A stretch of 59,152 nucleotides of DNA, filler included, from 5 parts of 5 records of this genome joined end to end with filler, not necessarily neighbours in it; one strand, 5' to 3'. Shown: positions 27,907 through 59,152, counted from the first letter of the whole stretch. The notes: generated by a model not told the origin, from the letters alone. A program made the numbers and translations.

Positions 27907-27929
27907 TTTTGGTATTTCAACAATGCAAG

Positions 27930-29419: not shown

Positions 29420-29509
29420 ATAATCCTCCAATTCTGAATTCTACAAATGAATTGTTGAAAATGCTGTGGGAAAGCAGACTATTTTTCGGAAGAATTAAAA
29501 GAATAAATA

Positions 29510-29626: not shown

Positions 29627-29658
29627 CTAAACGAACTTTTACATGGATTATAGTTTTT

Positions 29659-30225: not shown

Positions 30226-30245
30226 ATTATTCCACCCCAATAATC

Positions 30246-31235: not shown

Positions 31236-31244
31236 ATCTTATAC

Positions 31245-31799: not shown

Positions 31800-31800
31800 A

Positions 31801-33803: not shown

Positions 33804-33842
33804 CGCCTGTCAACCTCCGCAATAATGAGCTTTTTGATTTTT
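33800..33842 (-). CDS. 3' end of an upstream gene coupled (ATGA overlap) to the ATPase
   Basis: ..KIKKLIIAEVDRR*; contains the RBS GGAGG; the rest lies beyond the contig. Confidence 0.5.
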
Positions 33843-33942
33843 NNNNNNNNNNNNNNNNNNNNNNNNNNNNNNNNNNNNNNNNNNNNTTAATTAATTAANN
33901 NNNNNNNNNNNNNNNNNNNNNNNNNNNNNNNNNNNNNNNNNN
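33843..33942. other. Artificial contig spacer
   Basis: N44-TTAATTAATTAA-N44. Confidence 0.99.
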
Positions 33943-40365: not shown

Positions 40366-41480
40366 ATGAGAAGAGTATTAGCTAATTTATATCAAAAATT
40401 ATTCTATATAAACGAAAAAGGTCTTAGACCATTAGCACTTTTTCCTAAGAAAAAAAGAAGAGATGTTATGCTTCCGAAGGATGATGGATTTCTAAATGAT
40501 CAAGAAGTTCAATGGTGGTACTGGACTGGTCATCTAGAAGGTGTATGTGAGGAAACTGGAGAAACGAAAGAGTTTGGTTTTGAATTAGTTTTCTTCGCTT
40601 TTGATAGTTGGATATTTTTTAAAAATCAACTTGCTCAAGCAGCTGTTAGTGATATAACTGCCGGAACATATCATTATCGTGAAGAAGTAAGATATTTGAG
40701 TTTGCCGAAGAAGCTAAAAGGGAAATTTGATTTAAAAATACATGAGAAAAAAGAAAAGTTATGTCGGCATTAGGAATTGATGGAGACGACAGCTTGTACG
40801 CTGAAGTTGATGATTATAAATTTAAGCTTCAATTAAAATCAGAAGAACCGACAGTAATTAGATACGATGGTAAAGCACATGAATATGAATTTGGTGGGTA
40901 TACATATTATTATTCGCGAGAAAAAATGAAAACGAATGGTACCGTTCAAGTTGGTGACAAAACATATAAAGTTACAGGTGTTTCATGGTTCGACAGGCAG
41001 TATGGGGATCTTTATTTTGCTATTTTTAAAGGTTGGCAATGGTTTGCACTCTCTATGAATGATAACAGAACAATCATGCTTTATGATTTCTTAGGTGATT
41101 ATGAAGATGAAAAATATGGTTCAGTTGTTGCAAACGAGAACTATACTCAACTATGGAAAAATGACTATAAGGTTCATGTAATGGGAAGTTGGAAAAGTCC
41201 TGATACAGGAATAACCTACCCTTCAGGTTGGAAAGTTGAGCTGAAGGATAAGTCTGGTAATATAACGGAGGAATTTATAGTTGAGCCGTTACTGAAAGAC
41301 CAAGAGCTTCATGCCAAACATATATTTTGGGTAGGGCCAGAATATTGGGAGGGAGACTGTGCTATAAAGAGTATGGAGGGAGATGTGATTGGAAAGGCGT
41401 ATATAGAATTAAACGGATTTGGTCACAAATTTCTTAGTATAGATATACTTGATGATGGAAAAACAGATTTTGGAATTTAA
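40366..41480 (+). CDS. AttH/CrtC-like double lipocalin-fold protein; 1-nt indel at about 40755
   Basis: QWWYWTGHL; FGFELVFF; YYYSR; GVSWFDRQYG; GWQWF; WKSPDTGITYPSGW; DQEL; YWEG; GKAYIELNG. Confidence 0.85.
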
Positions 41481-47127: not shown

Positions 47128-47227
47128 NNNNNNNNNNNNNNNNNNNNNNNNNNNNNNNNNNNNNNNNNNNNTTAATTAATTAANNNNNNNNNNNNNNNNN
47201 NNNNNNNNNNNNNNNNNNNNNNNNNNN
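47128..47227. other. Artificial contig spacer
   Basis: N44-TTAATTAATTAA-N44. Confidence 0.99.
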
Positions 47228-47231
47228 AAAA

Positions 47232-47378
47232 GTGTGGAGAAACTCCACACACCATTCTTTCAATTCTGAGATAAGTGATAGAATACTTTAACCCTCACTT
47301 TGAAAACATGTCTAACTTATTGTTTATTATAATTGATAAAATATGCGAAATTGTCATGTTTTTGGCAAGGAATTTGTA
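47232..47378 (+). promoter_or_regulatory. Probable sigma54 promoter with an upstream palindromic activator site
   Basis: GTGTGGAG-aaa-CTCCACAC (47232-47250, TGT-N11-ACA); IHF-like TAACTTATTG (about 47313); TTGGCAAGGAATTTGTA (47362-47378, GG-N10-GT variant). Confidence 0.6.
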
Positions 47379-47428
47379 TAGTAGTGAATCTTAATTTACA
47401 TAATTAAGTATAATTTGAAAAAAAACAA

Positions 47429-47797
47429 ATGAATTGCCTTTTTATAACAAATGCTAACAATAAAGTTTCTATGGAACTGGTCGAATATTTGGAATTACGG
47501 GGCGTTCCAATTTTATCGACTTTGGATCCATTGGTTGGTATACAAAAGGCACAGGAACAGCATTTTGACGTTATTATATTAGAAGCACAACCACAGATTA
47601 TTAATGTAGAACGAGCTATTCAGTTGTTAAAAGGATGTGATCCTCTGGCACGGATTATTGTGCATACAGAATCAAATTCAAGAAGTTTGGAATCTAAGGT
47701 GAGAAAAGAACAGGTTTTTTATTATCACGTTGATTCTTTTGGTACAGGTGACCTAAAGTTGGCTGTTGCCAGTGCTTTAAAGTTAGATGACGTTTAA
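47429..47797 (+). CDS. Atypical (pseudo) receiver-domain protein
   Basis: REC-like fold with VIILE in place of the phospho-Asp, no acidic pair and no conserved Lys; VRKEQVFYYH motif. Confidence 0.65.
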   Translation: MNCLFITNANNKVSMELVEYLELRGVPILSTLDPLVGIQKAQEQHFDVIILEAQPQIINVERAIQLLKGCDPLARIIVHTESNSRSLESKVRKEQVFYYHVDSFGTGDLKLAVASALKLDDV

Positions 47798-47905
47798 AGC
47801 CGTATCGAATAGATTTTCATTTACCAACAAATACTTTTTATATTAGATTGCCAGATTAATTAAGGCTAAAAAAAGATAAAAAAATATCAACATATCCCAA
47901 AAAAA

Positions 47906-48337
47906 ATGATGGGAGAAGATATGGTAAATACAATAAAAATATTGATAGCTGATGACGATCCGGATTTTATAGAGATAAACCGGACCATTCTCGAATCAGC
48001 TGGTTATGTGATTGATGAAGCTTTAACGTCGACAGAAGCGCTTGAAAAAGTCAGATCTGAACATTATGATCTTCTCATACTCGATCTTATGATGGAAGAA
48101 CGAGATGCCGGATTTACGGTAGCTTATGCCGTACGTGAAGATGATAATCTAAAATATCTACCTATTTTGATGCTTACCTCGGCACAAGAAAAAACGGGAT
48201 TTACATTTAATATTTCAAATGATAAAGACTGGATGAAGGTTGATGATTTTGCTGCCAAGCCTTTGAGACCAGCAGATCTTTTGGCAAGAGTTAAAACTCT
48301 CTTAGAAAAAGGTGCGAAATCACGTGAATCAAAATAA
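47906..48337 (+). CDS. Single-domain response regulator (paralog 1)
   Basis: IADDD; LILDLMM; LTS; AKP. The start may be the ATG at 47921. Confidence 0.92.
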   Translation: MMGEDMVNTIKILIADDDPDFIEINRTILESAGYVIDEALTSTEALEKVRSEHYDLLILDLMMEERDAGFTVAYAVREDDNLKYLPILMLTSAQEKTGFTFNISNDKDWMKVDDFAAKPLRPADLLARVKTLLEKGAKSRESK

Positions 48338-49805
48338 TAAGATTAAAATCCTTGTGGTCGATGATGAGGAGATTATTCGTGCGGGGTGTGCGAAAATTCT
48401 GGAAATTGAAAATCACGATGTCGATCAGGCAGAAAATGGTATAATAGCCCTTGAAAAAATTCGCTCAAAAGAATACGATCTGGTTCTGCTGGATCTCAAA
48501 ATGCCTGATATGGGGGGGATGGAACTTTTAGATAATTTACATGCGATTGATCAGGATATCGTTTCTATAATTATGACAGCCTATGCGACGATCGAAACAG
48601 CTGTAGATGCCATAAAAAAAGGAGCGTATGATTATTTACCAAAACCGTTTATGCCTGAAGACATGATCACCAAGGTAAATAGAGGACTGGAAAAACGACG
48701 CCTGAGCCTGGAAGCAAAATCTCTTCGAGAGGAAAGGGATCAGAATCTTCTTGCATGTTCTACAGAAAAAACACGTACTCGTATCATTATTGACAGCATG
48801 AAGGAAGGATTGATAGCCACAAACAGAGATGGCCTTGTGGCACTCGTTAATCCAGCTGCCAAGAAATTGTTGCGATTGAAAGATAAAAACTTGATTGGGC
48901 AACCGTATGAAATTCTTTTTGGGGCTGATAAATCAAAAGATACCAGTTCAGAAATATTAAATGCCTCGAAGACAAGCAGAGTTGAATTGACCACAAAGCA
49001 AGGTCGGGTTTTGCAAACCCACACCACTCCCATTATGGATATGAATGATGAGTGTATCGGCTCTGTGACGGTTCTGATCGATATTACAAAAGAAAAACAA
49101 ATTGAAAATATGAAATCCGATTTTATTCGAATGGTTTCGCACGAATTAAAAGCACCCATTGGAGCGATTGAAGGTTATCTTAACCTCATTATTGATGGTG
49201 TGGTGGAAGGACAGCCTGAAAAACAAAAGGATATTATCCGGAAATCCCGTGACAAAGCTGAAAATTTAATAGAACTTGTAAATGATTTACTGGACTTGTC
49301 TCGTTCAGACAGCAAGGTTTCAAAAGTTATAGAACCTGTGGATCTTGGAAAAGTACTTAAAGAAACCGTCGATTTCTATCAAAATCAGGCAAATGAAAAA
49401 AACATTCAATTCGGATATGAAATAGATTGCAAAGATGCTGTTTTACGAGGACATCGGGATGATTTATCTAGACTCTTTGCAAATTTGGTTAGCAATGCCA
49501 TTAAATATACGCCTGAAAAGGGTATTGTTTCCGTACAATTAATGCAGTCAGATTCACAAATTACGATCGAAGTTAAAGACTCTGGCATTGGTATTCCAGA
49601 AGCAGATTTACAAAAAATATTTAGTGATTTTTATCGTTGCAGTAACGCAATAAAGAACAAAATTTCGGGCACCGGTTTAGGGTTGTCTATCGCACGTAAA
49701 ATAACAGAAGAACACCATGGTTATATAGAAATTGAGAGTCAGGAAAACGTGGGCTCAACATTTCGCGTTATATTTCCATTAATGGAAAAATTTAATTTAT
49801 CTTAA
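48324..49805 (+). CDS. REC-PAS-HisKA-HATPase hybrid kinase (paralog 1)
   Basis: VVDDE..LLDLKMP..PKP; SHELKAPI; NLVSNAIKYT; DSGIGI; GTGLGL. GTG start after AAAGGTG. Confidence 0.93.
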   Translation: MNQNNKIKILVVDDEEIIRAGCAKILEIENHDVDQAENGIIALEKIRSKEYDLVLLDLKMPDMGGMELLDNLHAIDQDIVSIIMTAYATIETAVDAIKKGAYDYLPKPFMPEDMITKVNRGLEKRRLSLEAKSLREERDQNLLACSTEKTRTRIIIDSMKEGLIATNRDGLVALVNPAAKKLLRLKDKNLIGQPYEILFGADKSKDTSSEILNASKTSRVELTTKQGRVLQTHTTPIMDMNDECIGSVTVLIDITKEKQIENMKSDFIRMVSHELKAPIGAIEGYLNLIIDGVVEGQPEKQKDIIRKSRDKAENLIELVNDLLDLSRSDSKVSKVIEPVDLGKVLKETVDFYQNQANEKNIQFGYEIDCKDAVLRGHRDDLSRLFANLVSNAIKYTPEKGIVSVQLMQSDSQITIEVKDSGIGIPEADLQKIFSDFYRCSNAIKNKISGTGLGLSIARKITEEHHGYIEIESQENVGSTFRVIFPLMEKFNLS

Positions 49806-49895
49806 CTAGTTTTTAATTGGCAACAATACAAAACACTTTAAAAAAAGTGATAATTTACTACCTATATAAAACAGTACAAAGCGAACGAGGAGTTT

Positions 49896-50351
49896 ATGGA
49901 AACGCAAGAAGTATATAGCAAATATCCAGAAAATGATGCCTCATCACTCATAGCTATGTTGCAGGATATTCAGAGTATTCATGGTTATTTGCCTGAAGAA
50001 GAATTACATAATGTGGCAGAACATACTAAATTGCCTGTAAGTCGGGTATATGGTGTGGCAACATTTTATAATCAGTTTCGGTTGAGACCTTTAGGTAAAC
50101 ATGTTATTCGTGTATGTCGAGGAACTGCCTGTCACGTGAAAGGTTCATTTGATATATTACAAACATTAGAGAGTGAGTTGGGTATTAAAGCAGGAGAAAC
50201 AACAAAGGATTTAAAATTTACCATCGAAACAGTCGCTTGTATAGGGGCATGCAGTATAGCACCTGTCATCATGATAGACGACGAATTTCATGGTGGGCTT
50301 ACTGTAAAAAAGAGTAAAAAGTTGATCGAATACTATCAAAATTTGGAGTGA
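49896..50351 (+). CDS. hydC: [FeFe]-hydrogenase NuoE-like [2Fe-2S] subunit
   Basis: GVATFY; VCRGTACHV; ACIGACSIAP. Confidence 0.93.
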   Translation: METQEVYSKYPENDASSLIAMLQDIQSIHGYLPEEELHNVAEHTKLPVSRVYGVATFYNQFRLRPLGKHVIRVCRGTACHVKGSFDILQTLESELGIKAGETTKDLKFTIETVACIGACSIAPVIMIDDEFHGGLTVKKSKKLIEYYQNLE

Positions 50352-50358
50352 GGGCTGT

Positions 50359-52356
50359 ATGAATTCCTATCAAGCTTTATTTACTAATTGTTGGCACTCG
50401 GCTGAAAATCCATGCAAGTTTTTTGTTAATTGTATCAGCAAGGGTCAACAATGTTACCAGTCTCAGGAGAGCTTTGAGAAACTGGATATATTTAAAAAAG
50501 ATATTTTATTTGAAAAACATGCGGAACCTGTCATACTTGTCGGTATGGGGACCTGTGGTTTAGCAAACGGTGCACAAAAAGTATATGATGCGTTAAAAGA
50601 ACAATTAAAAGTTAACAATATTAATGCAAAGCTTTTATCCACTGGTTGTGTTGGTTATTGCGCAAAGGAGGTTATTGTTGATATTAAACTGCCTGATTTT
50701 CCACGTATTAGTTATTGTGAGGTCACACCAGAAGATGTACCGGAAATAATAGAAAAAACATTAAAAAATGAAGAAGTTATCACAGCCAAGGTTCTTGGAT
50801 TATATAATTCAAATGGAAATCAAAATGGTTGGGATGGCTGTAAAGATATTACAGATGTACCATTTTTTAGCAAACAAAAAAAAGTGGTCCTGGAAAACTG
50901 TGGTATAATAGATCCTGAAAATATTGATCAATATTTGGCCAGGGGTGGTTATAAAGCATTGTCCAGAGCTGTTAATCAGATGTCCTCAAAGGATGTCATT
51001 GATGAAGTTTTAGATGCCGGTTTAAGAGGTAGAGGAGGCGGAGGTTTCCCTGCAGGTAAAAAATGGGAATTTGCTCATAATACATCAAGTGATAAAAAAT
51101 ACTTGATTTGTAATGCTGATGAAGGAGATCCTGGTGCCTTTATGGATCGAGCCGTTTTGGAGGGTGATCCTCACCGTGTTGTTGAGGGGATGATCATCGC
51201 TGCATATGCGATTGGTGCCAGCTTTGGGTATGTATATTGTCGAGCTGAATATCCTTTAGCAATTGCAAGGCTCGAAAAGACGATAGCTGCTGCAGAAGAG
51301 TACGGCTTATTAGGGGATAATATTCTGGGAAGTGGTTTTTGCTTTCATTTGAAAATTAAAAAGGGAGCCGGCGCTTTTGTTTGTGGCGAAGAAACGGCTC
51401 TAATTAATTCTATTGAAGGTAAACGTGGAATGCCAAAACCAAGGCCCCCGTTTCCTGCTGTATCCGGTCTTTTTGGCAAGCCTACAGTTATAAATAACGT
51501 GGAAACCTTAGCCAATGTACCTACAATCCTACGCAATGGCGCTGAATGGTATGCCGGAATAGGGACAGAATCTTCAAAAGGGACAAAAATATTTGCACTG
51601 TCTGGTAAAGTGAATAATACCGGACTTGTTGAAGTCCCAATGGGAACAACCCTTCGCGAGATCGTTTTTGATATTGGTGGTGGTATTCCGGATGGAAAAA
51701 AATTCAAAGCCGTACAAATTGGTGGACCATCTGGTGGCACCTTACCTGAACAAGTTATTGATACTCATATTGATTATGAAAATCTTAAAAAGGTTGGCGC
51801 CATGATGGGGTCAGGCGGACTTGTTGTGATGGACGAAACAACCTGTATGGTCGATCTGGCCAAGTATTTTATGAATTTTATCGCCTCAGAATCATGCGGT
51901 AAATGTATACCTTGTCGCGAAGGCACAAAACGATTACTGGAAATATTGGAACGTCTAACTGAAAGTCATAGAAAAGAAAATGATCCAAAAGACGCTCTTT
52001 TGCGTTTTCAGGGTATGGTTTACCTTGAAAGACTCGCTGAGGTCATCAAAAATACATCGCTTTGCGGATTAGGGCAAACGGCAGCAAATCCGGTACTCAG
52101 CACATTACATTACTTTAAAGATGAGTATGAAGCTCATCTCTATGATCGAAAATGTCCTGCTGGTCAATGTCGGCAACTTTTGACATATAAAATAGACACA
52201 GATAAATGTACTGGTTGTACATTATGTGCGAGAAAATGCCCATCAAATGCTATTTTGGGTGAAAAGAAAAAAGCACATTATATTATTGAAGATAAATGTA
52301 TCCGTTGTGATTTATGTCGGACAAATTGCAAGTTTGATGCTATTACTGTAGAGTGA
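50359..52356 (+). CDS. hydB: [FeFe]-hydrogenase NuoF-like flavoprotein subunit, electron-bifurcating type
   Basis: GRGGGGFP; NADEGDPGAFMDR; CGEETAL; RPPFP; GGPSGG; ESCGKCIPCREG; two C-terminal CxxCxxCxxxC motifs. Confidence 0.95.
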   Translation: MNSYQALFTNCWHSAENPCKFFVNCISKGQQCYQSQESFEKLDIFKKDILFEKHAEPVILVGMGTCGLANGAQKVYDALKEQLKVNNINAKLLSTGCVGYCAKEVIVDIKLPDFPRISYCEVTPEDVPEIIEKTLKNEEVITAKVLGLYNSNGNQNGWDGCKDITDVPFFSKQKKVVLENCGIIDPENIDQYLARGGYKALSRAVNQMSSKDVIDEVLDAGLRGRGGGGFPAGKKWEFAHNTSSDKKYLICNADEGDPGAFMDRAVLEGDPHRVVEGMIIAAYAIGASFGYVYCRAEYPLAIARLEKTIAAAEEYGLLGDNILGSGFCFHLKIKKGAGAFVCGEETALINSIEGKRGMPKPRPPFPAVSGLFGKPTVINNVETLANVPTILRNGAEWYAGIGTESSKGTKIFALSGKVNNTGLVEVPMGTTLREIVFDIGGGIPDGKKFKAVQIGGPSGGTLPEQVIDTHIDYENLKKVGAMMGSGGLVVMDETTCMVDLAKYFMNFIASESCGKCIPCREGTKRLLEILERLTESHRKENDPKDALLRFQGMVYLERLAEVIKNTSLCGLGQTAANPVLSTLHYFKDEYEAHLYDRKCPAGQCRQLLTYKIDTDKCTGCTLCARKCPSNAILGEKKKAHYIIEDKCIRCDLCRTNCKFDAITVE

Positions 52357-52374
52357 ATTATTTGAGGAAGTAAA

Positions 52375-54087
52375 ATGAGAATACAAATAAATGGTAAAGA
52401 AGTCTGGGCAAATCCAGGTGAGACAATTCTGACAGTCACTGAAAGGGAAGGAATAAAAATTCCCACGTTGTGCTATATGAAAGGATTTTCTCCAACAGGA
52501 TCATGTCGAATTTGTGTTGTAGAAGTTGAAGGGCAAAGAAATTTAACCCCTGCATGTGCATTTCCTGTAGCAGAGGGTATGAAGATAGAAACAAATTCTC
52601 CCAAAGTACGAAGAGCGAGAAAAACCGTTATTGAGTTACTTATTGCAAATCATCCTATGGAATGCCTTACCTGTGTAAGAAATAGTCAGTGTGAATTGCA
52701 GGATCTTGCGGCTGAATATGGCGTCCGAGAGCTAAGATATACCGGTGAAATACGAACCGGTAAACAAGACGTTGCCAGTCCAGCCCTGGAAAGGGATCCG
52801 AATAAATGCATTCTTTGTGGTCGTTGTGTCCGTGTGTGTCATGAAGTCCAAAATGTTGGCGCTATTGATTTCACCAAACGTGGTTTTAGCAGCGTAGTGA
52901 CACCATCTATGGACAGTAGTTTAAATACTATTCCATGTGTATTTTGCGGTCAGTGTATTGCTGTCTGCCCGGTAGGCGCATTACGTGAAAAGAGTCATCA
53001 AAAGAAGGTTTGGGAAGCCATTAATAACAAGGAAAAATATGTTGTTGCCCAGGTTGCCCCGGCCATCCGCGTTGCCCTTGGTGAGGAATTTGGTATGGAA
53101 CCAGGGACAGAAGTGACAGGTAAAACAGTAGCAGCTTTAAGACGAATGGGAATTGATAAAGTTTTTGATACCAATTTTGGTGCGGATCTGACCATTCTGG
53201 AAGAAGCAACCGAACTTTTGAATCGAGTTAAAAATGGCGGCAAGATTCCGATGATGACATCCTGTAGCCCAGGATGGATAAAGTATATGGAGCATTTTTA
53301 TCCAGATCTGCTGGATAATCTATCAAGCTGTAAATCTCCACACGAGATGGAAGGTGCACTGATTAAATCCTATTTTGCTGCCAAAATGAGTATTGATCCG
53401 GAAAACATTGTTGTTGTTTCCATCATGCCGTGTACAGCGAAAAAATATGAAGCACAACGCCCGGAACTTGGTGAGAAATATCCGGATGTGGACGCTGTGT
53501 TAACAACCCGGGAATTGGCCAGAATGATAAAATCCGCAGGCATCGATTTCGCCAAGTTACCTGATGAGTATTTTGATGATCCTATGGGTGAATCGACCGG
53601 TGCTGCCGTTATATTTGGAAGTTCCGGTGGTGTTATGGAGGCGGCTCTAAGAACAGCTTATTTTTATATGACAGGCAGAGAAATGAATAACATTGAATTC
53701 TCGCCCATAAGAGGTTTGGAGGGACTTAAAGAAGCCAAAGTTGATATTGATGGCACAGTTCTTCAGGTAGCTGCTGTTAGTGGATTGAAAAATGTAGATC
53801 ATTTACTCGAACAAATGAGAAAAGGCGAGTCTCCCTATCATTTTATCGAGGTTATGGCCTGTCCTGGTGGATGCATTAATGGAGGTGGACAACCACTCCC
53901 ATCTGATCCTGACAAAGCAAGAAAACGGGCAGAAGGTATTTATGCTATTGATCGTAAATTGCCAAAGAGATGTTCACATCACAATGAATCACTGAAAAAA
54001 TTATACGACGAGTTTCTCGGTGAACCCAATGGCCACAAGTCTCATGAATTGTTACATACTCATTATGTTAACAGAAAAGAGTCATAA
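52375..54087 (+). CDS. hydA: [FeFe]-hydrogenase catalytic subunit (group A3-type)
   Basis: [2Fe-2S], His-ligated and 2x[4Fe-4S] motifs; H-cluster L1 TSCSPGW, L2 MPCTAKKYE, L3 EVMACPGGCINGGGQP. Confidence 0.96.
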   Translation: MRIQINGKEVWANPGETILTVTEREGIKIPTLCYMKGFSPTGSCRICVVEVEGQRNLTPACAFPVAEGMKIETNSPKVRRARKTVIELLIANHPMECLTCVRNSQCELQDLAAEYGVRELRYTGEIRTGKQDVASPALERDPNKCILCGRCVRVCHEVQNVGAIDFTKRGFSSVVTPSMDSSLNTIPCVFCGQCIAVCPVGALREKSHQKKVWEAINNKEKYVVAQVAPAIRVALGEEFGMEPGTEVTGKTVAALRRMGIDKVFDTNFGADLTILEEATELLNRVKNGGKIPMMTSCSPGWIKYMEHFYPDLLDNLSSCKSPHEMEGALIKSYFAAKMSIDPENIVVVSIMPCTAKKYEAQRPELGEKYPDVDAVLTTRELARMIKSAGIDFAKLPDEYFDDPMGESTGAAVIFGSSGGVMEAALRTAYFYMTGREMNNIEFSPIRGLEGLKEAKVDIDGTVLQVAAVSGLKNVDHLLEQMRKGESPYHFIEVMACPGGCINGGGQPLPSDPDKARKRAEGIYAIDRKLPKRCSHHNESLKKLYDEFLGEPNGHKSHELLHTHYVNRKES

Positions 54088-56132
54088 TGGCCGTTGTTTG
54101 GACAATTGAAGAGCGGTGCAAAAGGTGTTATTCCTGTATTCGTGAATGCCCTGCAAAAGCCATCAAGGTCGAACGTGGCCAGGCCAAGGTTATTAAAGAG
54201 CGATGCATTGGCTGTGGTCACTGTGTGCAGGTTTGTTCTCAAAATGCCAAGGCTATCCTTGACAACGTGGATAACACATTTGAACTTCTTCATTCTTCGG
54301 AAAAGGTCGTGGCCATGCTGGCTCCGTCATTTCCAGCTATGTTTCCTGACATGGATTATGTATATATTGTTGGGGCATTAAGGCAATGTGGATTTGATAA
54401 GGTGGTTGAAGTTGCATTCGGAGCGGACCTTATTAACCAGGAGTATGAGGCTCTCGTTGAACAAATAGATAAACAACGGGCACACAAGGTCAGGAAACCA
54501 ATTATTACCAGTTCCTGTCCTGCCATTTGTAAGTATATCGAAAAATATGTACCTGAATTATTACATAATTTAGCTCCAATTGTATCTCCCATGGTAGCCA
54601 TGGGTAGAGTCGTACATGACTACTATGGGAAAGATACCAAAGTTGTTTTTATTGGTCCTTGCACTGCAAAAAAACTGGAAATCAGGGACGAAACTGTGCA
54701 GGACTCTGTTGATGAAGTATTGACGTTTGATGAATTGATTTCTCTATGGAAAAAATGTAAGGTCAATCCTGAAAAAGCGACACCGTCCTGTTTTGATCCG
54801 CCTAATGCACATTTGGGACGTCTTTACCCTGTATCTGGCGGGTTATTAAAAAGTGCTGGTCTGCCGCATGATATTCTTGACAATGGTGTCATTGTCACAG
54901 AAGGAAAAAATAGAGTTCTCAAATTATTAGACTGTTTGCAAAACAAGCAGATCTCGGCTAACATGGTTGATGTCCTTTTTTGTGAAGGCTGTATCAGTGG
55001 ACCATTTACGAATCAATCTATTAATTTTTTTACCCGCAAACAAAAAGTCGTTGCCTATGCTGATAAAAAAAGATTGCGCAGTGACGTTACAGAGTGGAAA
55101 GAATCAATAGAGAGATTTCGTGATGTAAATGTAATGCGCACATTTGAATTAGAACAAATTCGTTCTGAAATACCCTCTGAGGGGCATCTTAATAAGATAC
55201 TGGCCAAGATTGACAAAATTAGTCCATCTGATGAGCTGAATTGTGGTGCGTGTGGCTACGAGACGTGTCGTGAATATGCGACGGCTGTTCACCAGGGCCT
55301 CGCTGAAGACGATATGTGTTTACCATATTTGATAGAAAAATTACAAAAAACCCAAAATGAATTACAATATTCCCTGGTGAAACTGGAAGAAACACAAGAA
55401 CAACTCATACAGCATGAAAAGCTCGCATCGATCGGTCAACTTGCTGCTGGTGTTGCGCATGAGGTCAATAATCCACTTGGATCCATCATGTTATTTGCAC
55501 ATTTGGTGTTACAAAATTTGGCAACAGATGATGCATGCGCTAAAGATCTAAAGTTTATTATCGAAGAAGCAAGCAGATGTCAAAAAATCGTATCTGGCCT
55601 TGTCAATTTTTCACGACAGGGAAATCTCAATCTGAAACCCCATAGTGTTAATGAGTTATTAGATAGAGTTATTCAAGCTGTAAAAAATCAGCCTAATTTT
55701 AAAAATGTTACGATTTCACTGAATATATCTCCAGATATCCCGGAAATCAATGTGGATAGTGAGCAAATTTATCAGGTGTTTTTAAACATAATGGTCAATG
55801 CCGCTGATGCGATGCCACACGGTGGGCAATTGCTTATTTCCTGTGGGATAGATTTGGATCACCAAAGAGTGACGATCAGTTTCAAAGATTCGGGTATTGG
55901 CATCCCCGAAGAAAATATCAAAAAACTATTTACACCGTTTTATACGACAAAACAAATAGGTAAAGGGACCGGATTAGGTCTGGCAATAGCATATGGAATA
56001 TTAAAAATGCACAAGGGCAGTATACAGGTTGAGAGTAAAGTTGGTAAATATACCTGTTTTACAATTGAGTTACCCCTTTTTGCAGAAGACCATTTGCTGA
56101 AAACTGAAAACAGTGAATCTAAACTAGTTTGA
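54087..56132 (+). CDS. Sensory-type (group C) [FeFe]-hydrogenase domain fused to a histidine kinase
   Basis: 2x[4Fe-4S]; L1 TSSCP, L2 GPCTAKKLE, L3 DVLFCEGCISGP; FeS domain NCGACGYETC..MCLPY; coiled coil; AHEVNNPL, NAADA, GTGLGL. TAATG overlap with hydA. Confidence 0.92.
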   Translation: MAVVWTIEERCKRCYSCIRECPAKAIKVERGQAKVIKERCIGCGHCVQVCSQNAKAILDNVDNTFELLHSSEKVVAMLAPSFPAMFPDMDYVYIVGALRQCGFDKVVEVAFGADLINQEYEALVEQIDKQRAHKVRKPIITSSCPAICKYIEKYVPELLHNLAPIVSPMVAMGRVVHDYYGKDTKVVFIGPCTAKKLEIRDETVQDSVDEVLTFDELISLWKKCKVNPEKATPSCFDPPNAHLGRLYPVSGGLLKSAGLPHDILDNGVIVTEGKNRVLKLLDCLQNKQISANMVDVLFCEGCISGPFTNQSINFFTRKQKVVAYADKKRLRSDVTEWKESIERFRDVNVMRTFELEQIRSEIPSEGHLNKILAKIDKISPSDELNCGACGYETCREYATAVHQGLAEDDMCLPYLIEKLQKTQNELQYSLVKLEETQEQLIQHEKLASIGQLAAGVAHEVNNPLGSIMLFAHLVLQNLATDDACAKDLKFIIEEASRCQKIVSGLVNFSRQGNLNLKPHSVNELLDRVIQAVKNQPNFKNVTISLNISPDIPEINVDSEQIYQVFLNIMVNAADAMPHGGQLLISCGIDLDHQRVTISFKDSGIGIPEENIKKLFTPFYTTKQIGKGTGLGLAIAYGILKMHKGSIQVESKVGKYTCFTIELPLFAEDHLLKTENSESKLV

Positions 56133-56136
56133 AAAA

Positions 56137-56534
56137 ATGAAGAAAAAAATATTAATCATTGATGATGATGTTGACCTGGTCGATATGACAAAGGCTTTTT
56201 TAATTCAACATGATTATGAGGTATTTACGGCCTATAATGGGGTAGAAGGTATCGAGTGCTTGAAAAACTGCATCCGGATCTTGTTATGTTGGATGTTATG
56301 ATGACATCCGTAGGGGAAGGATTTGAAGTGGCTCAGGAGATCCGTAAATTGGATTCTGTAAAGGACATTCCCATTCTCATGGTATCCAGTGTAAATGAGC
56401 AGCACGATTTTCCACTTATGTTTGGCCCGGATGACCAGTGGAATCCTGTGAATGATTTCCTTAATAAACCTGTACAACCACAGCTTCTACTGGATAAAAT
56501 ATCAGAACTGCTGAAAGTAAATAGTGGTGACTGA
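56137..56534 (+). CDS. Single-domain response regulator (paralog 2); 1-nt indel at about 56265
   Basis: MKKKILIIDDD upstream of the listed ORF; VMLDVMM; VSS; NKP. Confidence 0.88.
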
Positions 56535-56620
56535 AAAAATAAAAACAATAATGGACCGAACTTTTTTTGAAATTAATTACGAAATATTAAATATATTCAC
56601 AAAGGAAGACTAGGAAGATC

Positions 56621-57019
56621 ATGAGCGGAAAAATTTTATTTATTGATGATGATGTAGATTTGCTACATATGTATAAACCTTTTCTCGAAAAGCATGGCTA
56701 TGAGGTTGAAGTATCTTATAATAGCGAGGAAGGGCTTGAAAAATTTAAATCATTTAAACCAGATGTCGCATTTGTTGATCTGGCTATGGAACATTTTGAT
56801 TCCGGTTTTACACTTTGTCATAATATTAAGAAATTGCCAGAAAGCAAGGATGTCCCTATTATCATTTTTACAGCAGCTGGTCACGAAACCGGAGTTCGTT
56901 TTTCTACTCAGACCAATGAAGAGAAAAGGTGGATAAAGGCAGATGATTACCTTGATAAACCGATATCCGTTCGTGATTTGTTGCAGTATATAAGTGAAAA
57001 AATATTCAGGGAACAATGA
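56621..57019 (+). CDS. Single-domain response regulator (paralog 3)
   Basis: FIDDD; FVDLAM; FTA; DKP. Confidence 0.92.
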   Translation: MSGKILFIDDDVDLLHMYKPFLEKHGYEVEVSYNSEEGLEKFKSFKPDVAFVDLAMEHFDSGFTLCHNIKKLPESKDVPIIIFTAAGHETGVRFSTQTNEEKRWIKADDYLDKPISVRDLLQYISEKIFREQ

Positions 57020-58493
57020 AATTAAAACATGCAAAAATTTTGGTCATTGACGATGAAGTCGGGATGCGTGAAGGGATAAAACGTCTTTTTGAGCTTCAAG
57101 GCCATCATGTGGATACTGCGGAAAACGGTAAAGAAGGGATACAGAAAGGCACGGCCTTTGAGTATGATATCTACTTTATCGATTTAAAAATCCCAGATTA
57201 TGATGGTGAAAAGATATTAAAGGAAATCAAAGAGAAATACCCTGAATCCATCTGTGTCATTATGACCGCTTTTGCCACAATAGATACAGCCATAAATACG
57301 ACGAGATTGGGTGCTTATCAGTATATAGCCAAACCTTTTCCTCCAGATGAATTACAGTATCTCGCATCTCGAGCACTGGAAAGACGTTGGTACATACTGG
57401 AAGCACGTCGACTCGCCAAGGAACAGGAACGTCGTTTCCTGGAAGTGGCTCATGAAAAATCACGAATAAAAACGATTATAAATGCCATTGATGATGGAAT
57501 TCTCGTTATCAATCAGGAAGGCCAGGTCGTTCTTTTTAATCCTAAATTTCTTTCCCTTTTAAATATTACTACCACCCTTAAAACTGGTCATTTAATACTG
57601 CATCACTTGCCTGAATCGTTACAGGAAATTATCATCGAGTTCATCGAGAATAATAAACCCTTAAAAGCCATTCAGCAAGAGATTGTATTAGAACCACCCG
57701 CCAAATTAGTCATAATGGCAAATACAGCTCCTATTAAGGACGAAAACGGCCAAACCATGGGAGTCGTTTCTGTGCTTCGGGATATAACGGAACTAAAGAA
57801 AATAGATATCCTAAAGTCCCAATTTATAAATATGGCTGCACATGAATTAAAAGCTCCTTTAACGGCTATTCAGGGTTACCTTGAAATGGTTGTTGAAAAA
57901 GAATTAGGTGATGCGCAGGATATTTATGAATCTTATTTAAAACGCTCATTAACAAGATCAAAAGCTCTGATTGAACTGATAAATGATTTGTTAAATATTT
58001 CCAGATTAGAAGCCGGCAAGGTAAGACGCGAAATAAAAAAGCTCAATATTTGTGAAATGCTGGAAAAAGCGATTAATGCTTTTCAGTCTGAAATAAATGA
58101 AAATTCAATCAATGTCACTCTTGACTGCCAACCTGACATGGAACTACAGGCAGATCAAAATGAAATTCAACGTGTATTTAACAATATTGTGTATAATGGT
58201 ATCAAGTATAATAAAAAAGATGGCGATTTAGTCATCACGGCAGGTATATACAAACATTATGTAAAGATAAAAGTTAAAGACACTGGAATTGGTATGAGTG
58301 AAACAGAAAAAGAACGTATATTTGAAGACTTTTTAGAGCTAAAAATAAACACACCAGAAACATTACCGGCACCGGCTTAGGACTCACTATTGTAAAAAAA
58401 ATTATAGATGCATATGCAGGCAAGATTACCGTTGAAAGTGAATTCGAGAAAGGTACGACTTTTACGATCTTTTTACCATCCATTACACAGTAA
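57016..58493 (+). CDS. REC-PAS-HisKA-HATPase hybrid kinase (paralog 2); 1-nt indel at about 58330
   Basis: AHELKAPL; NGIKYN; DTGIGM. The shifted frame restores FFRAKNKHTRNITGTGLGL..GTTFTIFLP. Confidence 0.9.
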
Positions 58494-58620
58494 TTTGAAC
58501 ACGATGATTCGATTTATATAATACAAGTCGAATCCATAAGATATAACTTGCAGTGATAAGCATTAATTCTGGGCGACTTGTGCGTCCCCCAAAACTGGAT
58601 GTCAAATAAGGAATGAAGAG

Positions 58621-58965
58621 ATGCTATTGAAAGATATTATTAAAGAGTTAAATCTGCAAATTCTGAGCGGTCAGGAGAACATTGACCTGGATGTAACGTA
58701 TGCTTATTCTTCCGATATATTAAGTGATGTCATGGCAAAGACCAGGAAAGATTGTCTTTGGATCACGAATCAAACTCACCAAAATGTGATTGCCATTATC
58801 TTTTTTAAAGGGCTTTCAGGAGCCATTTTGGCAGGTGATGTCAAACCAGATGAAGAGACTCTTTCAAAAGCAAAAGCTAAAAACATTCCAGTCTTTCAAA
58901 CGCATCTATCTGCTTTTGAACTCGCTGGTAAACTTTACGGTTTTGGAATAAGAGGAATCGATTGA
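58621..58965 (+). CDS. DRTGG-domain protein (hydrogenase-operon associated)
   Basis: YSSDILSDVMA..LWITNQTHQNVIA..AFELAGKLY. Confidence 0.85.
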   Translation: MLLKDIIKELNLQILSGQENIDLDVTYAYSSDILSDVMAKTRKDCLWITNQTHQNVIAIIFFKGLSGAILAGDVKPDEETLSKAKAKNIPVFQTHLSAFELAGKLYGFGIRGID

Positions 58966-59152
58966 ATGCTTCATTGGTACAGAGCAGATATGCACATACA
59001 TACCGTGCTGTCAGCTTGTTCTGAACTCACTATGGGTCCACGGGACATTGTTCGGCAAGCACTAGAGCAAAAATGTGACATCATTGCCATAACGGATCAT
59101 AATTCTGCTGAAAACGTTCCAGCTGTTTTGGATGCGGCACAGGGTAAACCTT
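58966..59152 (+). CDS. PHP-domain phosphoesterase (partial)
   Basis: ADMHIHTVLSAC..IAITDHNS; runs off the window. Confidence 0.88.
   Translation, partial: MLHWYRADMHIHTVLSACSELTMGPRDIVRQALEQKCDIIAITDHNSAENVPAVLDAAQGKP

What the first reader, a model, noticed from the sequence alone, without database searches (positions are those of the whole stretch)
47228..59152. Putative H2-sensing phosphorelay co-encoded with a bifurcating hydrogenase: H-cluster domain wired directly to a histidine kinase
Seen: the gene coupled to hydA (TAATG overlap) has 2x[4Fe-4S], an H-cluster domain, an FeS domain, then a coiled coil running into HisKA/HATPase with no PAS. Its H-cluster motifs carry sensory-type substitutions (TSSCP lacks the proton-transfer Cys; L2 Met to Gly; L3 Met to Leu with a shortened CEGC). 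The same strand carries two REC-PAS-kinase paralogs, three stand-alone receivers, a pseudo-receiver, DRTGG and PHP genes. Known: kinase-linked group C [FeFe]-hydrogenases are a predicted class, while the characterised HydS examples are PAS-type. Inference: a multi-step H2/redox relay controlling hydCBA, with no DNA-binding regulator in the window.
Basis: partly seen in the sequence, partly recalled or inferred. Interest (0 to 1): 0.78.

Follow-up and report, generated by a model that had tools for sequence, protein, structure and literature searches.

The report
Hydrogenase-like hydrogen sensor fused to kinase
Next to a hydrogen-producing enzyme, this bacterium encodes a hydrogenase-like sensor fused directly to a signalling kinase; the design is widespread and already predicted in databases but has never been tested, and it would let hydrogen sensing be measured directly.

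Summary
Gene 54087-56132 encodes 2x[4Fe-4S], an H-cluster domain, a Cx2Cx4Cx16C FeS domain, one long helix, then HisKA/HATPase, with no PAS domain. It overlaps hydA by TAATG.

It is not rare. At least 587 stretches in species-representative genomes encode relatives (KSB1, Calditrichota, Ignavibacteriota, Bacteroidota). Linkage is conserved: hydA lies directly upstream in 60 of 71 loci, and a REC-PAS-kinase follows in 68 of 69.

The class is already in print but uncharacterised: HydDB group C "histidine kinase-linked (putative)", and a kinase-domain form noted in Hydrogenedentota.

"No DNA-binding regulator" is a contig-edge artefact. The window joins five contigs with N spacers, and the hyd contig starts at 47228. 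In 13 related loci a sigma-54 activator (REC-AAA-HTH) sits exactly there, followed by a conserved -24/-12-like element, which the window has at 47363.

New details:
- The spacing from the last FeS cysteine to the phospho-histidine is heptad-quantised (40, 47 or 54).
- A shortened CxxC L3 motif marks the clade whose sensor cassette is fused to kinase, sigma-54, GGDEF or MCP outputs.

Two relay genes are frameshifted in A-runs. H2 sensing remains unproven.

The parts
47128..47227 (.). Contig-join spacer (N44-TTAATTAATTAA-N44). The hyd contig starts at 47228.
   Evidence: Identical spacers lie at 11457-11556, 19921-20020 and 33843-33942.
47232..47250 (+). Terminator-like hairpin GTGTGGAGAAACTCCACAC. 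In relatives it follows the stop codon of the sigma-54 activator gene, which is missing here.
   Evidence: hairpin plus T-rich tail. L003 has an 18-of-19 identical hairpin starting at the stop codon of its REC-Sigma54_activat-HTH_8 gene.
47363..47377 (+). Sigma-54-type -24/-12-like element TGGCAAGGAATTTGT, 52 nt upstream of the first gene.
   Evidence: TGGYA-N5-TTTGW sits at the same place in 13 of 13 related loci that carry the activator. There are 18 strict matches in 1.42 Mb of + strand over all 80 loci. A single match in the window is not significant on its own (expected 0.93 per window).
47429..47797 (+). Pseudo-receiver (122 aa): receiver-like fold without the acidic pair or the conserved Lys, and with Glu at the phospho-Asp position.
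   Evidence: Homologues are found in KSB1-type loci.
47906..48337 (+). Stand-alone receiver REC_a, PhoB-like with a long beta4-alpha4 insertion.
   Evidence: Pfam Response_reg E 1e-18..
48312..49805 (+). REC-PAS-HisKA-HATPase kinase 1 (RPK1).
   Evidence: The best NCBIfam hits are PnpS, WalK and PhoR, all below their cut-offs.
49896..50351 (+). HydC, NuoE-like [2Fe-2S] subunit.
   Evidence: Pfam 2Fe-2S_thioredx E 7e-53. NCBIfam nuoE_fam 147.2 bits against a cut-off of 142.4.
50359..52356 (+). HydB, NuoF-like flavin subunit with a C-terminal 2x[4Fe-4S].
   Evidence: Pfam Complex1_51K, SLBB, NADH_4Fe-4S and Fer4 610-663.
52375..54087 (+). HydA, catalytic [FeFe] hydrogenase subunit. L1 reads TSCSP; L2 (MPC) and L3 (EVMACPGGC) are canonical.
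   Evidence: Pfam. NCBIfam NF040763 'NADH-dependent [FeFe] hydrogenase, group A6' scores 898.6 bits against a cut-off of 765. The best PDB matches are A. woodii and T. kivui HydA1, E about 1.5e-86.
54087..56132 (+). HydS-kinase fusion (681 aa). It holds 2x[4Fe-4S] (C11/14/17/21 and C40/43/46/50), an H-domain (C144, C192, C299, C302), an FeS domain (C386/389/394/411), a signalling helix at 412-476 carrying H458, and the catalytic ATP-binding domain.
56137..56534 (+). Stand-alone receiver REC_b, split by a frameshift at an A-run near 56255-56273.
   Evidence: the C-terminal piece hits Response_reg at E 4e-9. Relatives have it intact, for example L003:12028-12420.
56621..57019 (+). Stand-alone receiver REC_c.
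   Evidence: Pfam Response_reg E 5e-19. It directly follows the fusion gene in most related loci.
57016..58493 (+). REC-PAS-HisKA-HATPase kinase 2 (RPK2), frameshifted near 58332-58344. The first ORF ends at 58380 and the G2-box tail runs in another frame to 58493.
   Evidence: Relatives have it intact at about 492 aa. Its REC domain scores best against AtoC.
58621..58965 (+). DRTGG-domain protein.
   Evidence: Pfam DRTGG E 1e-7. Conserved in KSB1-type loci.
58966..59152 (+). N-terminus of a PHP-domain protein, cut by the window end.
   Evidence: The L003 homologue has PHP and PHP_C.

Best explanation
The 11.9-kb contig (47228-59152) is the core of a conserved hydrogen-metabolism control locus from an FCB-group bacterium. 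Its nearest relatives are labelled candidate division KSB1.

The locus encodes a HydABC-type, NADH-linked (bifurcating-type) [FeFe] hydrogenase. Translationally coupled to hydA is a group C 'sensory' [FeFe]-hydrogenase-like protein whose C-terminal FeS domain runs straight into an AtoS/ZraS/NtrB-like histidine-kinase transmitter.

Proposed mechanism:
1. H2 binds and is slowly turned over at an H-cluster that lacks the fast proton path (inferred).
2. The resulting change in the state of the H-domain and FeS domain passes along one continuous helix. That helix starts at the cluster ligand Cys411 and carries the phospho-acceptor His458, 47 residues later. The spacing is heptad-quantised across the family, which argues for a register-dependent coiled-coil lever. 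The anatomy is shown; the mechanism is inferred.
3. This sets the balance of kinase and phosphatase activity (inferred).
4. Phosphate goes to AtoC/NtrC-like receiver domains. Candidates are the N-terminal REC of the always-adjacent REC-PAS-kinase and, in KSB1-type genomes, a sigma-54 activator encoded just upstream, off the edge of this contig (inferred).
5. The activator drives a sigma-54-type promoter at 47363, ahead of the whole gene row (inferred).
6. The PhoR/WalK-like REC-PAS-kinases and the PhoB-like single-domain receivers form a second tier. This tier probably integrates a PAS-sensed signal and balances the two hydrogenase gene sets that flank the relay in relatives (speculative).
For: Anatomy
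- The domain order and all metal ligands are present.
- In a 38-sequence family alignment the following are invariant: the 8 N-terminal Cys; C144-P145; G190-P191-C192; F298-C299-E300-G301-C302; C386/C389/C394/C411; and the kinase boxes H458-E-x-N-N-P-L, N567/N571, D601-x-G603-x-G605 and G625...L632.

A [2Fe] site is probably kept
- Positions that I recall as contacting the diiron ligands in CpI are conserved in the fusion clade: A230-P231-S232 (here A79-P80-S81), P324, K358 and E361.
- The proton-path residues C299, S319, E282 and R286 are lost, as in the characterised HydS proteins (passages of PMC8163306).

Signalling helix
- AlphaFold2 gives one helix from residue 412 to 476 (mean pLDDT 78.1, but below 50 for residues 433-458).
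- The distance from Cys411 to His458 is 40, 47 or 54 in all 119 of 122 family proteins in which both motifs were found. It is 33, 40, 47, 54 or 68 in 28 of 32 short-linker representatives.

Sensor-module behaviour
- Of 72 scanned representatives of the nearest 50%-identity clusters, the same cassette is fused to a kinase in 38, to Sigma54_activat in 9, to GGDEF in 2, to MCPsignal in 2 and to PAS only in 6. Fifteen show no output domain.

Linkage

Output
- A REC-Sigma54_activat-HTH_8 gene lies directly upstream in 13 of 16 KSB1-type loci with enough upstream sequence.
- The element TGGYA-N5-TTTGW is present in all 13 of those loci and in the window.

Pairing hint
- The fusion's kinase core scores best against AtoS and ZraS.
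- The upstream regulator scores best against AtoC and ZraR.
- The REC domain of RPK2 scores best against AtoC.
- RPK1 and RPK2 kinase cores score best against PnpS, WalK and PhoR, and the single-domain receivers against PhoB.
Against: - No experiment exists for any kinase-fused member. Searches found none in the library.
- The L3 loop between two cluster ligands is one residue shorter than in every characterised [FeFe] hydrogenase, so H-cluster geometry or occupancy could differ.
- The authors of PMC11406978 (passages read) could hardly find motifs P1-P3 in their group C1 sequences and doubted H2 sensing.
- In TamHydS the C-terminal [4Fe-4S] cluster is not reduced by H2 (PMC13104023, abstract and passages read). 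[quoted passage not shown]
- In this window two relay genes are frameshifted and the regulator is not on the contig.
- In Ignavibacteria- and Bacteroidota-type loci no DNA-binding regulator lies within 10 kb (Pfam on L043 only). A sigma-54-like element precedes hydC in only 4 of 40 loci.
- The kinase-to-receiver assignments rest on best-hit family likeness, all below the equivalog cut-offs.
Confidence: 0.68

Rival explanations
1. Redox sensor rather than H2 sensor. The hydrogenase-like domain keeps only [4Fe-4S] clusters, or an inert site. It would report the reduction state of the ferredoxin/NADH pool that HydABC shares, and the kinase would respond to electron pressure rather than to H2 itself.
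For: - The L3 motif is shortened to CxxC, and the proton path is lost.
- The N-terminal 2x[4Fe-4S] domain is a typical electron entry point.
- Doubts were raised for group C1 in PMC11406978 (passages read).
- The C-terminal cluster of TamHydS is insensitive to H2 (PMC13104023, abstract and passages read).
Against: - A230-P231-S232, P324, K358 and E361, together with all four cluster cysteines, are conserved across the fusion clade at 46-91% identity. That is hard to explain without a diiron subsite. The roles of these residues are recalled from the CpI literature, not tested here.
- The characterised relatives TmHydS and TamHydS do bind an H-cluster and react with H2 (passages of PMC8163306).
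Confidence: 0.2
2. An extra, slow catalytic or electron-transfer subunit of the hydrogenase complex (the 'BfuT' reading), in which the kinase part plays a minor or structural role.
For: - The gene is translationally coupled to hydA and lies directly after hydA in 60 of 71 loci.
- PMC11406978 (passages read) treats the group C protein as a 'T subunit' of BfuABC gene clusters.
Against: - All catalytic kinase boxes are invariant.
- A receiver-containing kinase always follows.
- The same cassette is fused to GGDEF, MCP and sigma-54 outputs.
- In 8 loci (L021, L022, L024, L025, L029-L032) the gene is not preceded by hydA; in L022 and L025 the hyd genes lie upstream on the opposite strand.
Confidence: 0.05
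3. In this particular genome the relay is decaying. The frameshifts in the REC_b and RPK2 genes would be real pseudogenisation, and the sensor would now be orphaned.
For: - There are two frameshifts within 2.3 kb of the relay.
Against: - Both lie in A-runs.
- A third split gene (CrtC-like, 40366-41480) sits on another contig of the same fragmented draft, which fits assembly indel errors.
- Both broken genes otherwise keep 59-63% identity to intact homologues over their full length.
Confidence: 0.3

Closest known systems
HydDB [FeFe] group C, subtype C1 'histidine kinase-linked (putative)', and the kinase-domain 'BfuT' type reported in Hydrogenedentota
   Same: A sensory-type H-domain associated with histidine-kinase signalling and located next to group A3 hydrogenase genes. 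Sources: PMC5037454 Table 1; PMC11406978 (21 of 53 C1 genes and nearly all C3 genes lie next to A3); PMC7768429 (a Petrimonas C1 gene near hnd). I read passages of each.
   Different: These are database or genome-survey assignments only, with no biochemistry. I could not run HydDB, so C1 versus C3 is undecided. PMC11406978 files a His-kinase-domain form under C3. None of the passages I read mentions the heptad-quantised linker, the CxxC L3 signature, the conserved partner REC-PAS-kinase or the sigma-54 activator and promoter. I did not read these papers in full and could not see their supplements, which may bear on this.
[quoted passage not shown]
   Same: It has an N-terminal 2x[4Fe-4S], an H-domain lacking the C299 proton relay, M353 replaced by Gly, and a C-terminal Cx2Cx4Cx16C cluster (passages of PMC8163306 and PMC13104023).
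   Different: TmHydS ends in a PAS domain and has no kinase. In my tree, forms with only PAS or with no detected output lie outside the 64-row clade that holds the window protein (SH-aLRT 96), and they keep the C-x3-C L3 motif (5 of 6 PAS-only forms). TmHydS itself was not in my alignment.
[quoted passage not shown]
   Same: It has no PAS domain, M497 is replaced by Leu, it carries a C-terminal [4Fe-4S] cluster, and it is encoded next to a trimeric bifurcating hydrogenase (passages of PMC8163306).
   Different: It has no fused output domain, M353 is replaced by Ser rather than Gly, and its signalling partner is unknown (PMC13104023).
[NiFe] regulatory hydrogenase systems: HoxBC-HoxJ-HoxA and HupUV-HupT-HupR (HydDB group 2b)
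   Same: The logic is the same: a slow hydrogenase acts as H2 sensor, controls a histidine kinase, and regulates hydrogenase genes through an NtrC-type regulator. Sources: PMC5037454 Table 1 and the abstract of PMC5665086; the regulator type is recalled.
   Different: The metal site is unrelated ([NiFe]). Sensor and kinase are separate proteins joined through a PAS-like region. The window protein is therefore not a member, only an analogue.
AtoS/AtoC, ZraS/ZraR and NtrB/NtrC two-component pairs
   Same: The kinase core aligns best with ZraS in the PDB (9jfj, E 1e-37) and with AtoS and ZraS in NCBIfam. The regulator upstream in relatives scores best against AtoC, ZraR and NtrC.
   Different: All scores are below the equivalog cut-offs: 226.9 against 646 for AtoS, and 187.6 against 479 for ZraS. 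The input domain is entirely different, and the protein is cytoplasmic with no membrane segments.

Membership tests
[FeFe] hydrogenase group C (putative sensory) | H-domain with the four H-cluster cysteines (CpI C300, C355, C499, C503) | tested here: met
   PF02906 E 9e-53. C144, C192, C299 and C302 are invariant in 38 sequences and map to those CpI positions.
[FeFe] hydrogenase group C (putative sensory) | Loss of the proton-relay Cys299 and of the group A proton pathway | tested here: met
   C299 to Ser, S319 to Ala, E282 to Ala, R286 to Gln. The criterion comes from passages of PMC8163306.
[FeFe] hydrogenase group C (putative sensory) | N-terminal 2x[4Fe-4S] plus a C-terminal Cx2Cx4Cx16C cluster | tested here: met
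   (C386-x2-C389-x4-C394-x16-C411).
[FeFe] hydrogenase group C (putative sensory) | Canonical L3 motif spacing, C-x3-C | tested here: not met
   The motif is CEGC, that is C-x2-C. The same spacing is found in 37 of 38 kinase-fused, 8 of 9 sigma-54-fused, 2 of 2 GGDEF-fused and 2 of 2 MCP-fused representatives.
[FeFe] hydrogenase group C (putative sensory) | HydDB subgroup assignment (C1, C2 or C3) by its classifier | not testable with these tools
   HydDB is not available here. The literature is inconsistent on where kinase-fused forms fall (PMC11406978).
[FeFe] hydrogenase group C (putative sensory) | Binds an H-cluster and reacts with H2 | not testable with these tools
   There is only indirect support: A230-P231-S232, P324, K358 and E361 are conserved.
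PAS-type HydS (M2f, TmHydS-like) | C-terminal PAS domain after the FeS domain | tested here: not met
   No PAS hit at E<=0.01. Only 47 residues separate C411 from H458, and all are predicted helical.
HisKA-class sensor histidine kinase | H, N, G1, F and G2 boxes | tested here: met
   HisKA E 8e-11 and HATPase_c E 5e-26. The boxes are invariant in the family. The core aligns with ZraS, KinB and LvrB structures.
HisKA-class sensor histidine kinase | A cognate receiver encoded nearby | tested here: met
   A receiver or receiver-kinase gene follows in 68 of 69 loci. Which receiver is the cognate one was not determined.
AtoS or ZraS orthologue | NCBIfam equivalog cut-off | tested here: not met
   226.9 bits against 646 for AtoS; 187.6 bits against 479 for ZraS.
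HydABC-type (HydDB A3 / NCBIfam 'group A6') NADH-linked [FeFe] hydrogenase | HydA reaches the family cut-off, with NuoF-like and NuoE-like partners alongside | tested here: met
   NF040763 scores 898.6 bits against a cut-off of 765.
HydABC-type (HydDB A3 / NCBIfam 'group A6') NADH-linked [FeFe] hydrogenase | Actual flavin-based electron bifurcation | not testable with these tools
   HydB keeps the C-terminal 2x[4Fe-4S], whose absence PMC11406978 links to loss of bifurcation. Activity is unknown.

The most novel reading that the evidence does not exclude
The cassette of 2x[4Fe-4S], an H-cluster domain with CxxC L3, and the Cx2Cx4Cx16C FeS domain is a general, portable H2-input module of bacterial signalling, comparable to PAS or GAF. 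It is coupled to its output through a register-locked helix that begins at a cluster-ligand cysteine. Evolution has plugged it into histidine kinases, sigma-54 activators, diguanylate cyclases and chemoreceptors. In this locus it heads a three-kinase, six-receiver network that ends at a sigma-54 activator and switches between two hydrogenases according to H2 pressure. The kinase-fused form would then be the first system in which signalling by an [FeFe] sensory hydrogenase can be read out directly as phosphorylation.
Probability: 0.45. Interest if true: 0.7.

Novelty: new member of a known kind. Interest (0 to 1): 0.45.

Why it matters
How sensory [FeFe] hydrogenases pass on their signal is an open question. 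The 2026 TamHydS study (PMC13104023; abstract and passages read) ends by saying that the interaction partners and the signalling mechanism still have to be identified.

In the kinase-fused form the partner is covalently attached. Autophosphorylation with and without H2 is therefore a direct assay, and the heptad-quantised helix anchored at Cys411 gives a concrete, mutable transmission element.

Cultured carriers exist in Melioribacter and Rosettibacter, so genetics is possible.

Ecologically, the family is common in fermentative FCB-group bacteria, where H2 partial pressure decides whether fermentation pays. The window itself adds only one more example, and a damaged one.

Tried and rejected
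- Sigma-54 activator or its remnant in the window. tblastn with the L003 regulator matched only receiver domains and no AAA or HTH part. Pfam on 36 further ORFs found none. The contig edge explains the absence.
- Sigma-54 consensus patterns. A strict consensus (TGGYAY-N4-6-TTGCW) found nothing relevant. My first DNA search pattern had one N too many and returned 0 matches; I corrected it.
- Sigma-54-like element upstream of hydC in Ignavibacteria-type loci. It is present in only 4 of 40, and some of those lie inside coding sequence. The sigma-54 link therefore holds for the KSB1-type clade only.
- HydA motif TSCSP as a possible error or inactivation. Rejected. The same motif occurs in A. woodii HydA1 (PDB 7q4v) and in 61 of 107 HydA genes of the related loci.
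- Radical SAM gene 11587-12654 as the maturase HydE. Rejected. It is LipS2-like and lies on another contig.
- Rfam on 47228-59152 gave no match.
- Sigma-70 promoter and terminator scans were at chance level: 47 found against 40.8 expected, and 9 against 8.1. Only the conserved hairpin at 47232 is used.
- Literature searches found no biochemical study of a kinase-fused [FeFe] hydrogenase. They also found no paper linking DRTGG/PHP genes with HydS. That these genes accompany HydS clusters in Firmicutes is my recollection only.
- Script slip. In some searches the N-terminal piece of REC_b was taken one base out of frame (56138 instead of 56137), so that query was meaningless. I corrected it. No count depends on it.
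- ORF-calling artefacts. Over-long starts hid L015 (hydA adjacency) and L026 (following kinase), and hid the promoter element in L006, L010 and L015 (recovered).
- Not done. I did not run complex prediction: kinase dimerisation and kinase-receiver docking are textbook pairs, and one job could not tell the six receivers apart. I did not run fold search or the protein-atlas search. The genomic context of the 91%-identical protein P0003 stayed unseen.

Full report
**What the window is.**
The 59,152-base window is not one molecule. Four identical spacers, N44-TTAATTAATTAA-N44, lie at 11457-11556, 19921-20020, 33843-33942 and 47128-47227. It is therefore five contigs of a draft genome laid end to end. 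The finding's left border, 47228, is the first base of the last contig (47228-59152, 11.9 kb). Nothing to its left can be used as neighbourhood evidence. That includes the Ser/Thr kinase-STAND gene at 43251-46835 and the GAF-SpoIIE phosphatase at 41542-42954.

**Check of the observation.**
Every gene of the contig is on the + strand:

| Coordinates | Product |
|---|---|
| 47429-47797 | 122-aa pseudo-receiver |
| 47906-48337 | stand-alone receiver REC_a |
| 48312-49805 | REC-PAS-HisKA-HATPase (RPK1) |
| 49896-50351 | HydC |
| 50359-52356 | HydB |
| 52375-54087 | HydA |
| 54087-56132 | the fusion protein |
| 56137-56534 | receiver REC_b |
| 56621-57019 | receiver REC_c |
| 57016-58493 | REC-PAS-HisKA-HATPase (RPK2) |
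| 58621-58965 | DRTGG protein |
| 58966 to the end | start of a PHP protein |

- hydA and the fusion gene overlap as TAATG.
- The fusion protein (681 aa) has two CxxCxxCxxxC motifs and Fe_hyd_lg_C at 72-306 (E 9e-53). It also has the PF04060 FeS domain with C386-x2-C389-x4-C394-x16-C411, HisKA at 450-512 and HATPase_c at 557-664. There is no PAS hit.
- I mapped positions through the window's own HydA, which aligns without gaps to CpI in this region. The fusion protein has Ser at C299 with C300 kept, Gly at M353 and Leu at M497. It has a one-residue deletion between C499 and C503 (CEGC). It has also lost S319, E282 and R286 of the proton path.
- The 122-aa protein lacks the receiver's acidic pair and conserved Lys and has Glu at the phospho-Asp position. 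'Pseudo-receiver' is a fair name.
REC_b is split by a frameshift at an A-run near 56255-56273. RPK2 is split near 58332-58344, with its G2 box continuing in another frame to 58493. Relatives have both genes intact.

**How common it is.**
- A search of the 5.8-billion-protein collection scored 7961 of 8000 candidates at E<=1e-3. All 120 listed hits (46-91% identity, 645-726 aa) carry Fe_hyd_lg_C, FeS, HisKA and HATPase_c. Source names include candidate division KSB1, Calditrichia, Bacteroidota and Ignavibacteria.
- Of the 80 loci kept, NCBI-derived labels give 45 Ignavibacteriota, 15 Bacteroidota, 1 Calditrichota and 15 unplaced, most of which are titled KSB1 or 'bacterium'. Four carry labels that look like binning noise.
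- Cultured carriers are among them: Melioribacter sp. Ez-97 (L041) and Rosettibacter primus (L043).

**Conserved neighbourhood.**
I called ORFs in the 80 loci and matched them to the window's proteins.
- hydA lies directly upstream on the same strand in 60 of the 71 loci with at least 2.2 kb upstream. L015 is a miss caused by an over-long ORF call.
- Ten real exceptions remain. L051 and L073 carry only a downstream hydrogenase set. In the other eight (L021, L022, L024, L025, L029-L032) no hydA precedes the fusion gene. Within that group, L022 and L025 have the hyd genes upstream on the opposite strand, and the other six show none in the fetched stretch.
- Downstream, 68 of the 69 loci with at least 2.2 kb show a REC-PAS-kinase. 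It comes after one receiver in 45 loci, after two receivers in 15, and directly in 8. The 69th locus (L026) has it too, hidden by overlapping ORF calls.
- 72 of 80 loci hold a hydA-like gene.

Three layouts recur:

| Type | Gene order |
|---|---|
| KSB1-type (L001-L018, L023; 59-64% identity; the window's type) | sigma-54 activator, pseudo-receiver, REC_a, RPK1, hydCBA, fusion, REC_b, REC_c, RPK2, DRTGG, PHP, a 187-aa HATPase-only protein, a small 2Fe-2S protein, hydC'B'A' |
| Ignavibacteria-type | hydCBA, fusion, REC_c, RPK2, REC_a, hydC'B'A', kinase |
| Bacteroidota-type | fusion and RPK2; where hyd genes are seen (L022, L025), REC_a-hydCBA-RPK1 lies on the opposite strand |

The relay therefore often sits between two hydrogenase gene sets. 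Forty-five second HydA genes were found among the 80 loci. The window ends before that point.

**The 'missing' regulator.**
- In 13 of the 16 KSB1-type loci with enough upstream sequence, the gene just before the pseudo-receiver encodes REC-Sigma54_activat-AAA_lid-HTH_8 (Pfam on L003:1994-3313; BLAST coverage of the AAA part). L011, L016 and L017 lack it.
- In L003 its stop codon runs into the hairpin GTGTGGAGAAATTCCACAC. The window contig starts with AAAA followed by GTGTGGAGAAACTCCACAC at 47232-47250. The assembly therefore broke at the very end of that gene.
- Between the activator and the pseudo-receiver, all 13 loci carry TGGYA-N5-TTTGW. The window has TGGCAAGGAATTTGT at 47363-47377.
- The strict pattern occurs only 18 times in 1.42 Mb of + strand across all loci, so the positional conservation is real. 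One match in the window alone would not be significant (expected 0.93 per window).
- The -12 part reads TTTGA/T rather than the textbook TTGC (consensus recalled). I therefore call it sigma-54-like, not proven.
- Ignavibacteria-type loci show no such element before hydC (4 of 40). L043 has no regulator within 10 kb. The output there is unknown.

**Is it a sensor?**
Four lines of evidence point that way.
1. The active-site pocket matches the characterised putative sensors. These lack C299 and the proton path, carry the N-terminal clusters and have the Cx2Cx4Cx16C cluster. TmHydS has M353 as Gly, and TamHydS has M497 as Leu (passages of PMC8163306).
2. Residues that I recall as holding the diiron subsite in CpI are conserved across the fusion clade together with all four cysteines. 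These are A230-P231-S232, P324, K358 and E361. This argues that a [2Fe] site is still bound.
3. I searched 1.84 billion 50%-identity representatives with residues 60-420. This gave 3631 hits at E<=1e-3 and 486 at E<=1e-30. Pfam on 72 of the best 150 gave the table below (E<=1e-7, my manual tally). I left out the top three hits, five short fragments and ranks 79-150. A domain shuffled onto all the standard signalling outputs behaves as an input module.

| Output fused to the cassette | Count (of 72) |
|---|---|
| Histidine kinase (includes 2 PAS-kinase, 1 kinase-REC, 1 GAF-GAF-kinase, 1 HisKA_3) | 38 |
| Sigma54_activat, mostly with HTH_8 | 9 |
| GGDEF | 2 |
| MCPsignal | 2 |
| PAS only | 6 |
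| No output domain detected | 15 |

4. A quick maximum-likelihood tree of 80 rows, rooted on three group A H-domains, places all the fused forms together. All kinase-, sigma-54-, GGDEF- and MCP-fused forms fall in one 64-row clade (SH-aLRT 96). Five of the 6 PAS-only and 8 of the 15 output-less forms lie outside it. Many inner branches are unresolved.

The CxxC L3 motif tracks that clade. It is present in 37 of 38 kinase-fused, 8 of 9 sigma-54-fused, 2 of 2 GGDEF-fused and 2 of 2 MCP-fused forms. Only 1 of 6 PAS-only forms and 7 of 15 output-less forms have it.

**How the signal could travel.**
- AlphaFold2 with the family alignment gives a single helix from residue 412 to 476. The mean pLDDT is 78.1 and pTM is 0.60. 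The pLDDT is below 50 for residues 433-458, as expected for one strand of a coiled coil modelled alone. The last cluster ligand, C411, caps the helix that carries H458.
- Across P0001-P0122, the distance from that Cys to the His is 40 (35 proteins), 47 (82) or 54 (2). Both motifs were found in 119 of the 122 proteins.
- Among the other representatives with linkers up to 68 residues, 28 of 32 have 33, 40, 47, 54 or 68. Steps of exactly seven point to a coiled coil whose register matters, as in other signalling helices (general knowledge).
[quoted passage not shown] The FeS domain may act as the hinge of a lever rather than as a redox switch.
- The H-box reads HEVNNPL. The H-E-x-x-N arrangement is the one associated with phosphatase activity in HisKA kinases (recalled), so the protein is probably bifunctional.

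**Wiring (inference only).** Best family hits:

| Component | Best NCBIfam hits |
|---|---|
| Fusion kinase core | AtoS (226.9 bits), ZraS (187.6 bits) |
| Upstream activator in L003 | AtoC, ZraR, NtrC |
| REC domain of RPK2 | AtoC |
| RPK1 and RPK2 kinase cores | PnpS, WalK, PhoR |
| REC_a and REC_c | PhoB |

- All kinase and receiver scores are below the equivalog cut-offs.
- The activator's receiver is also most similar to the RPK1 and RPK2 receivers (88 and 87 bits, against 44 for REC_c).
- Together with the universal adjacency of the fusion gene and RPK2, this suggests two tiers. The fusion kinase would feed AtoC-like receivers (RPK2, RPK1 and the activator). The REC-PAS-kinases would feed the PhoB-like single-domain receivers. 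I give this wiring about one chance in three.

**What is known.**
[quoted passage not shown] It defined C2 as chemotactic and C3 as phosphatase-linked (PMC5037454, Table 1 passage).
- A Petrimonas genome paper reports a C1 gene close to hnd genes (PMC7768429, passage).
- The Hydrogenedentota survey found C1 and C3 genes next to A3 genes and noted HATPase_c in its C1 sequences. It described a C3 'T subunit' type with a histidine-kinase domain, and it doubted H2 sensing for C1 because motifs P1-P3 were hard to find (PMC11406978, passages).
- Reviews and the Cell 2024 paper describe group C as PAS-fused and putative (PMC8924675 and PMC11216029, passages).
- The only characterised proteins are TmHydS and TamHydS. 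Searches found no study of a kinase-fused form.
- I did not read these papers in full and could not see their supplements. The Hydrogenedentota supplementary figures may show architectures that overlap what I describe.

**Verdict.**
The finding is real and the reading is sound. It is one more member of a large, already predicted class, and a damaged and truncated example at that. Its value lies in the family, where the kinase fusion makes signalling by a sensory [FeFe] hydrogenase directly measurable. Three features give concrete handles for experiments: the heptad-locked helix anchored at Cys411, the CxxC L3 signature, and the sigma-54 activator with its promoter.

Noticed in passing
window 11457-11556, 19921-20020, 33843-33942, 47128-47227: Four identical spacers (N44-TTAATTAATTAA-N44) show that the window is five draft contigs joined artificially. 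Gene neighbourhoods across them are not real, and the kinase gene pieces at 18818-19885 and 19973-20896 are separated by a spacer rather than by a mutation.
   Followed up: yes
window 52375-54087 (HydA residues 295-299): The catalytic HydA reads TSCSP, with Ser at the position of the cluster ligand Cys300 of CpI. The same motif is in A. woodii HydA1 (PDB 7q4v), in 17 of 62 first-HydA genes and in 44 of 45 second-HydA genes of the related loci. It is therefore a natural variant. Its cluster ligation was not examined.
   Followed up: partly
L003:15458-20516 and equivalents in KSB1-type loci; L043:13903-19422 in Ignavibacteria-type loci: A second hydrogenase gene set (HydC', a shorter HydB' without a Pfam-detected C-terminal Fer4 pair, and HydA') follows the relay in many relatives. 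In KSB1-type loci it is preceded by a HATPase-only protein and a small 2Fe-2S protein. The relay may choose between two enzymes.
   Followed up: partly
proteins P0137, P0142, P0151, P0159, P0166, P0172, P0180, P0181, P0185; P0128, P0146; P0145, P0148: The same H-cluster/FeS cassette is fused directly to sigma-54 activator domains (9), GGDEF (2) and MCP signalling domains (2). These are one-component H2-regulator candidates.
   Followed up: partly
window 40366-41480: A CrtC/lipocalin-like gene is split into two overlapping ORFs. It is a third frameshift in this draft, which fits indel errors in the assembly.
   Followed up: no
window 20021-33842: A contig with higher G+C (0.47-0.49 around 22-28 kb) carries a MobA/VirD2-type relaxase (26136-27236), a YodL/DUF3846 protein, an NlpC/P60 protein and an AAA_23/AAA_15 ATPase. 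It looks like a mobile element.
   Followed up: no
window 41542-46835, minus strand: A 1194-aa Ser/Thr protein kinase fused to an AAA_16 STAND NTPase lies beside a GAF-SpoIIE phosphatase. They are on a different contig from the hyd genes, so they are unrelated to the finding.
   Followed up: no
window 47906-48337, 56137-56534, 56621-57019: The three single-domain receivers share a long insertion after beta4 (motif around ...W..V/ADD..KP) that the receiver domains of the kinases and of the sigma-54 activator lack. They form their own receiver subtype, whose target is unknown.
   Followed up: partly
window 1-11456: This contig holds GH43 genes, two sulfatases and a protein with a type IX secretion sorting tail. 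That is a polysaccharide-degrading repertoire typical of FCB-group bacteria.
   Followed up: no
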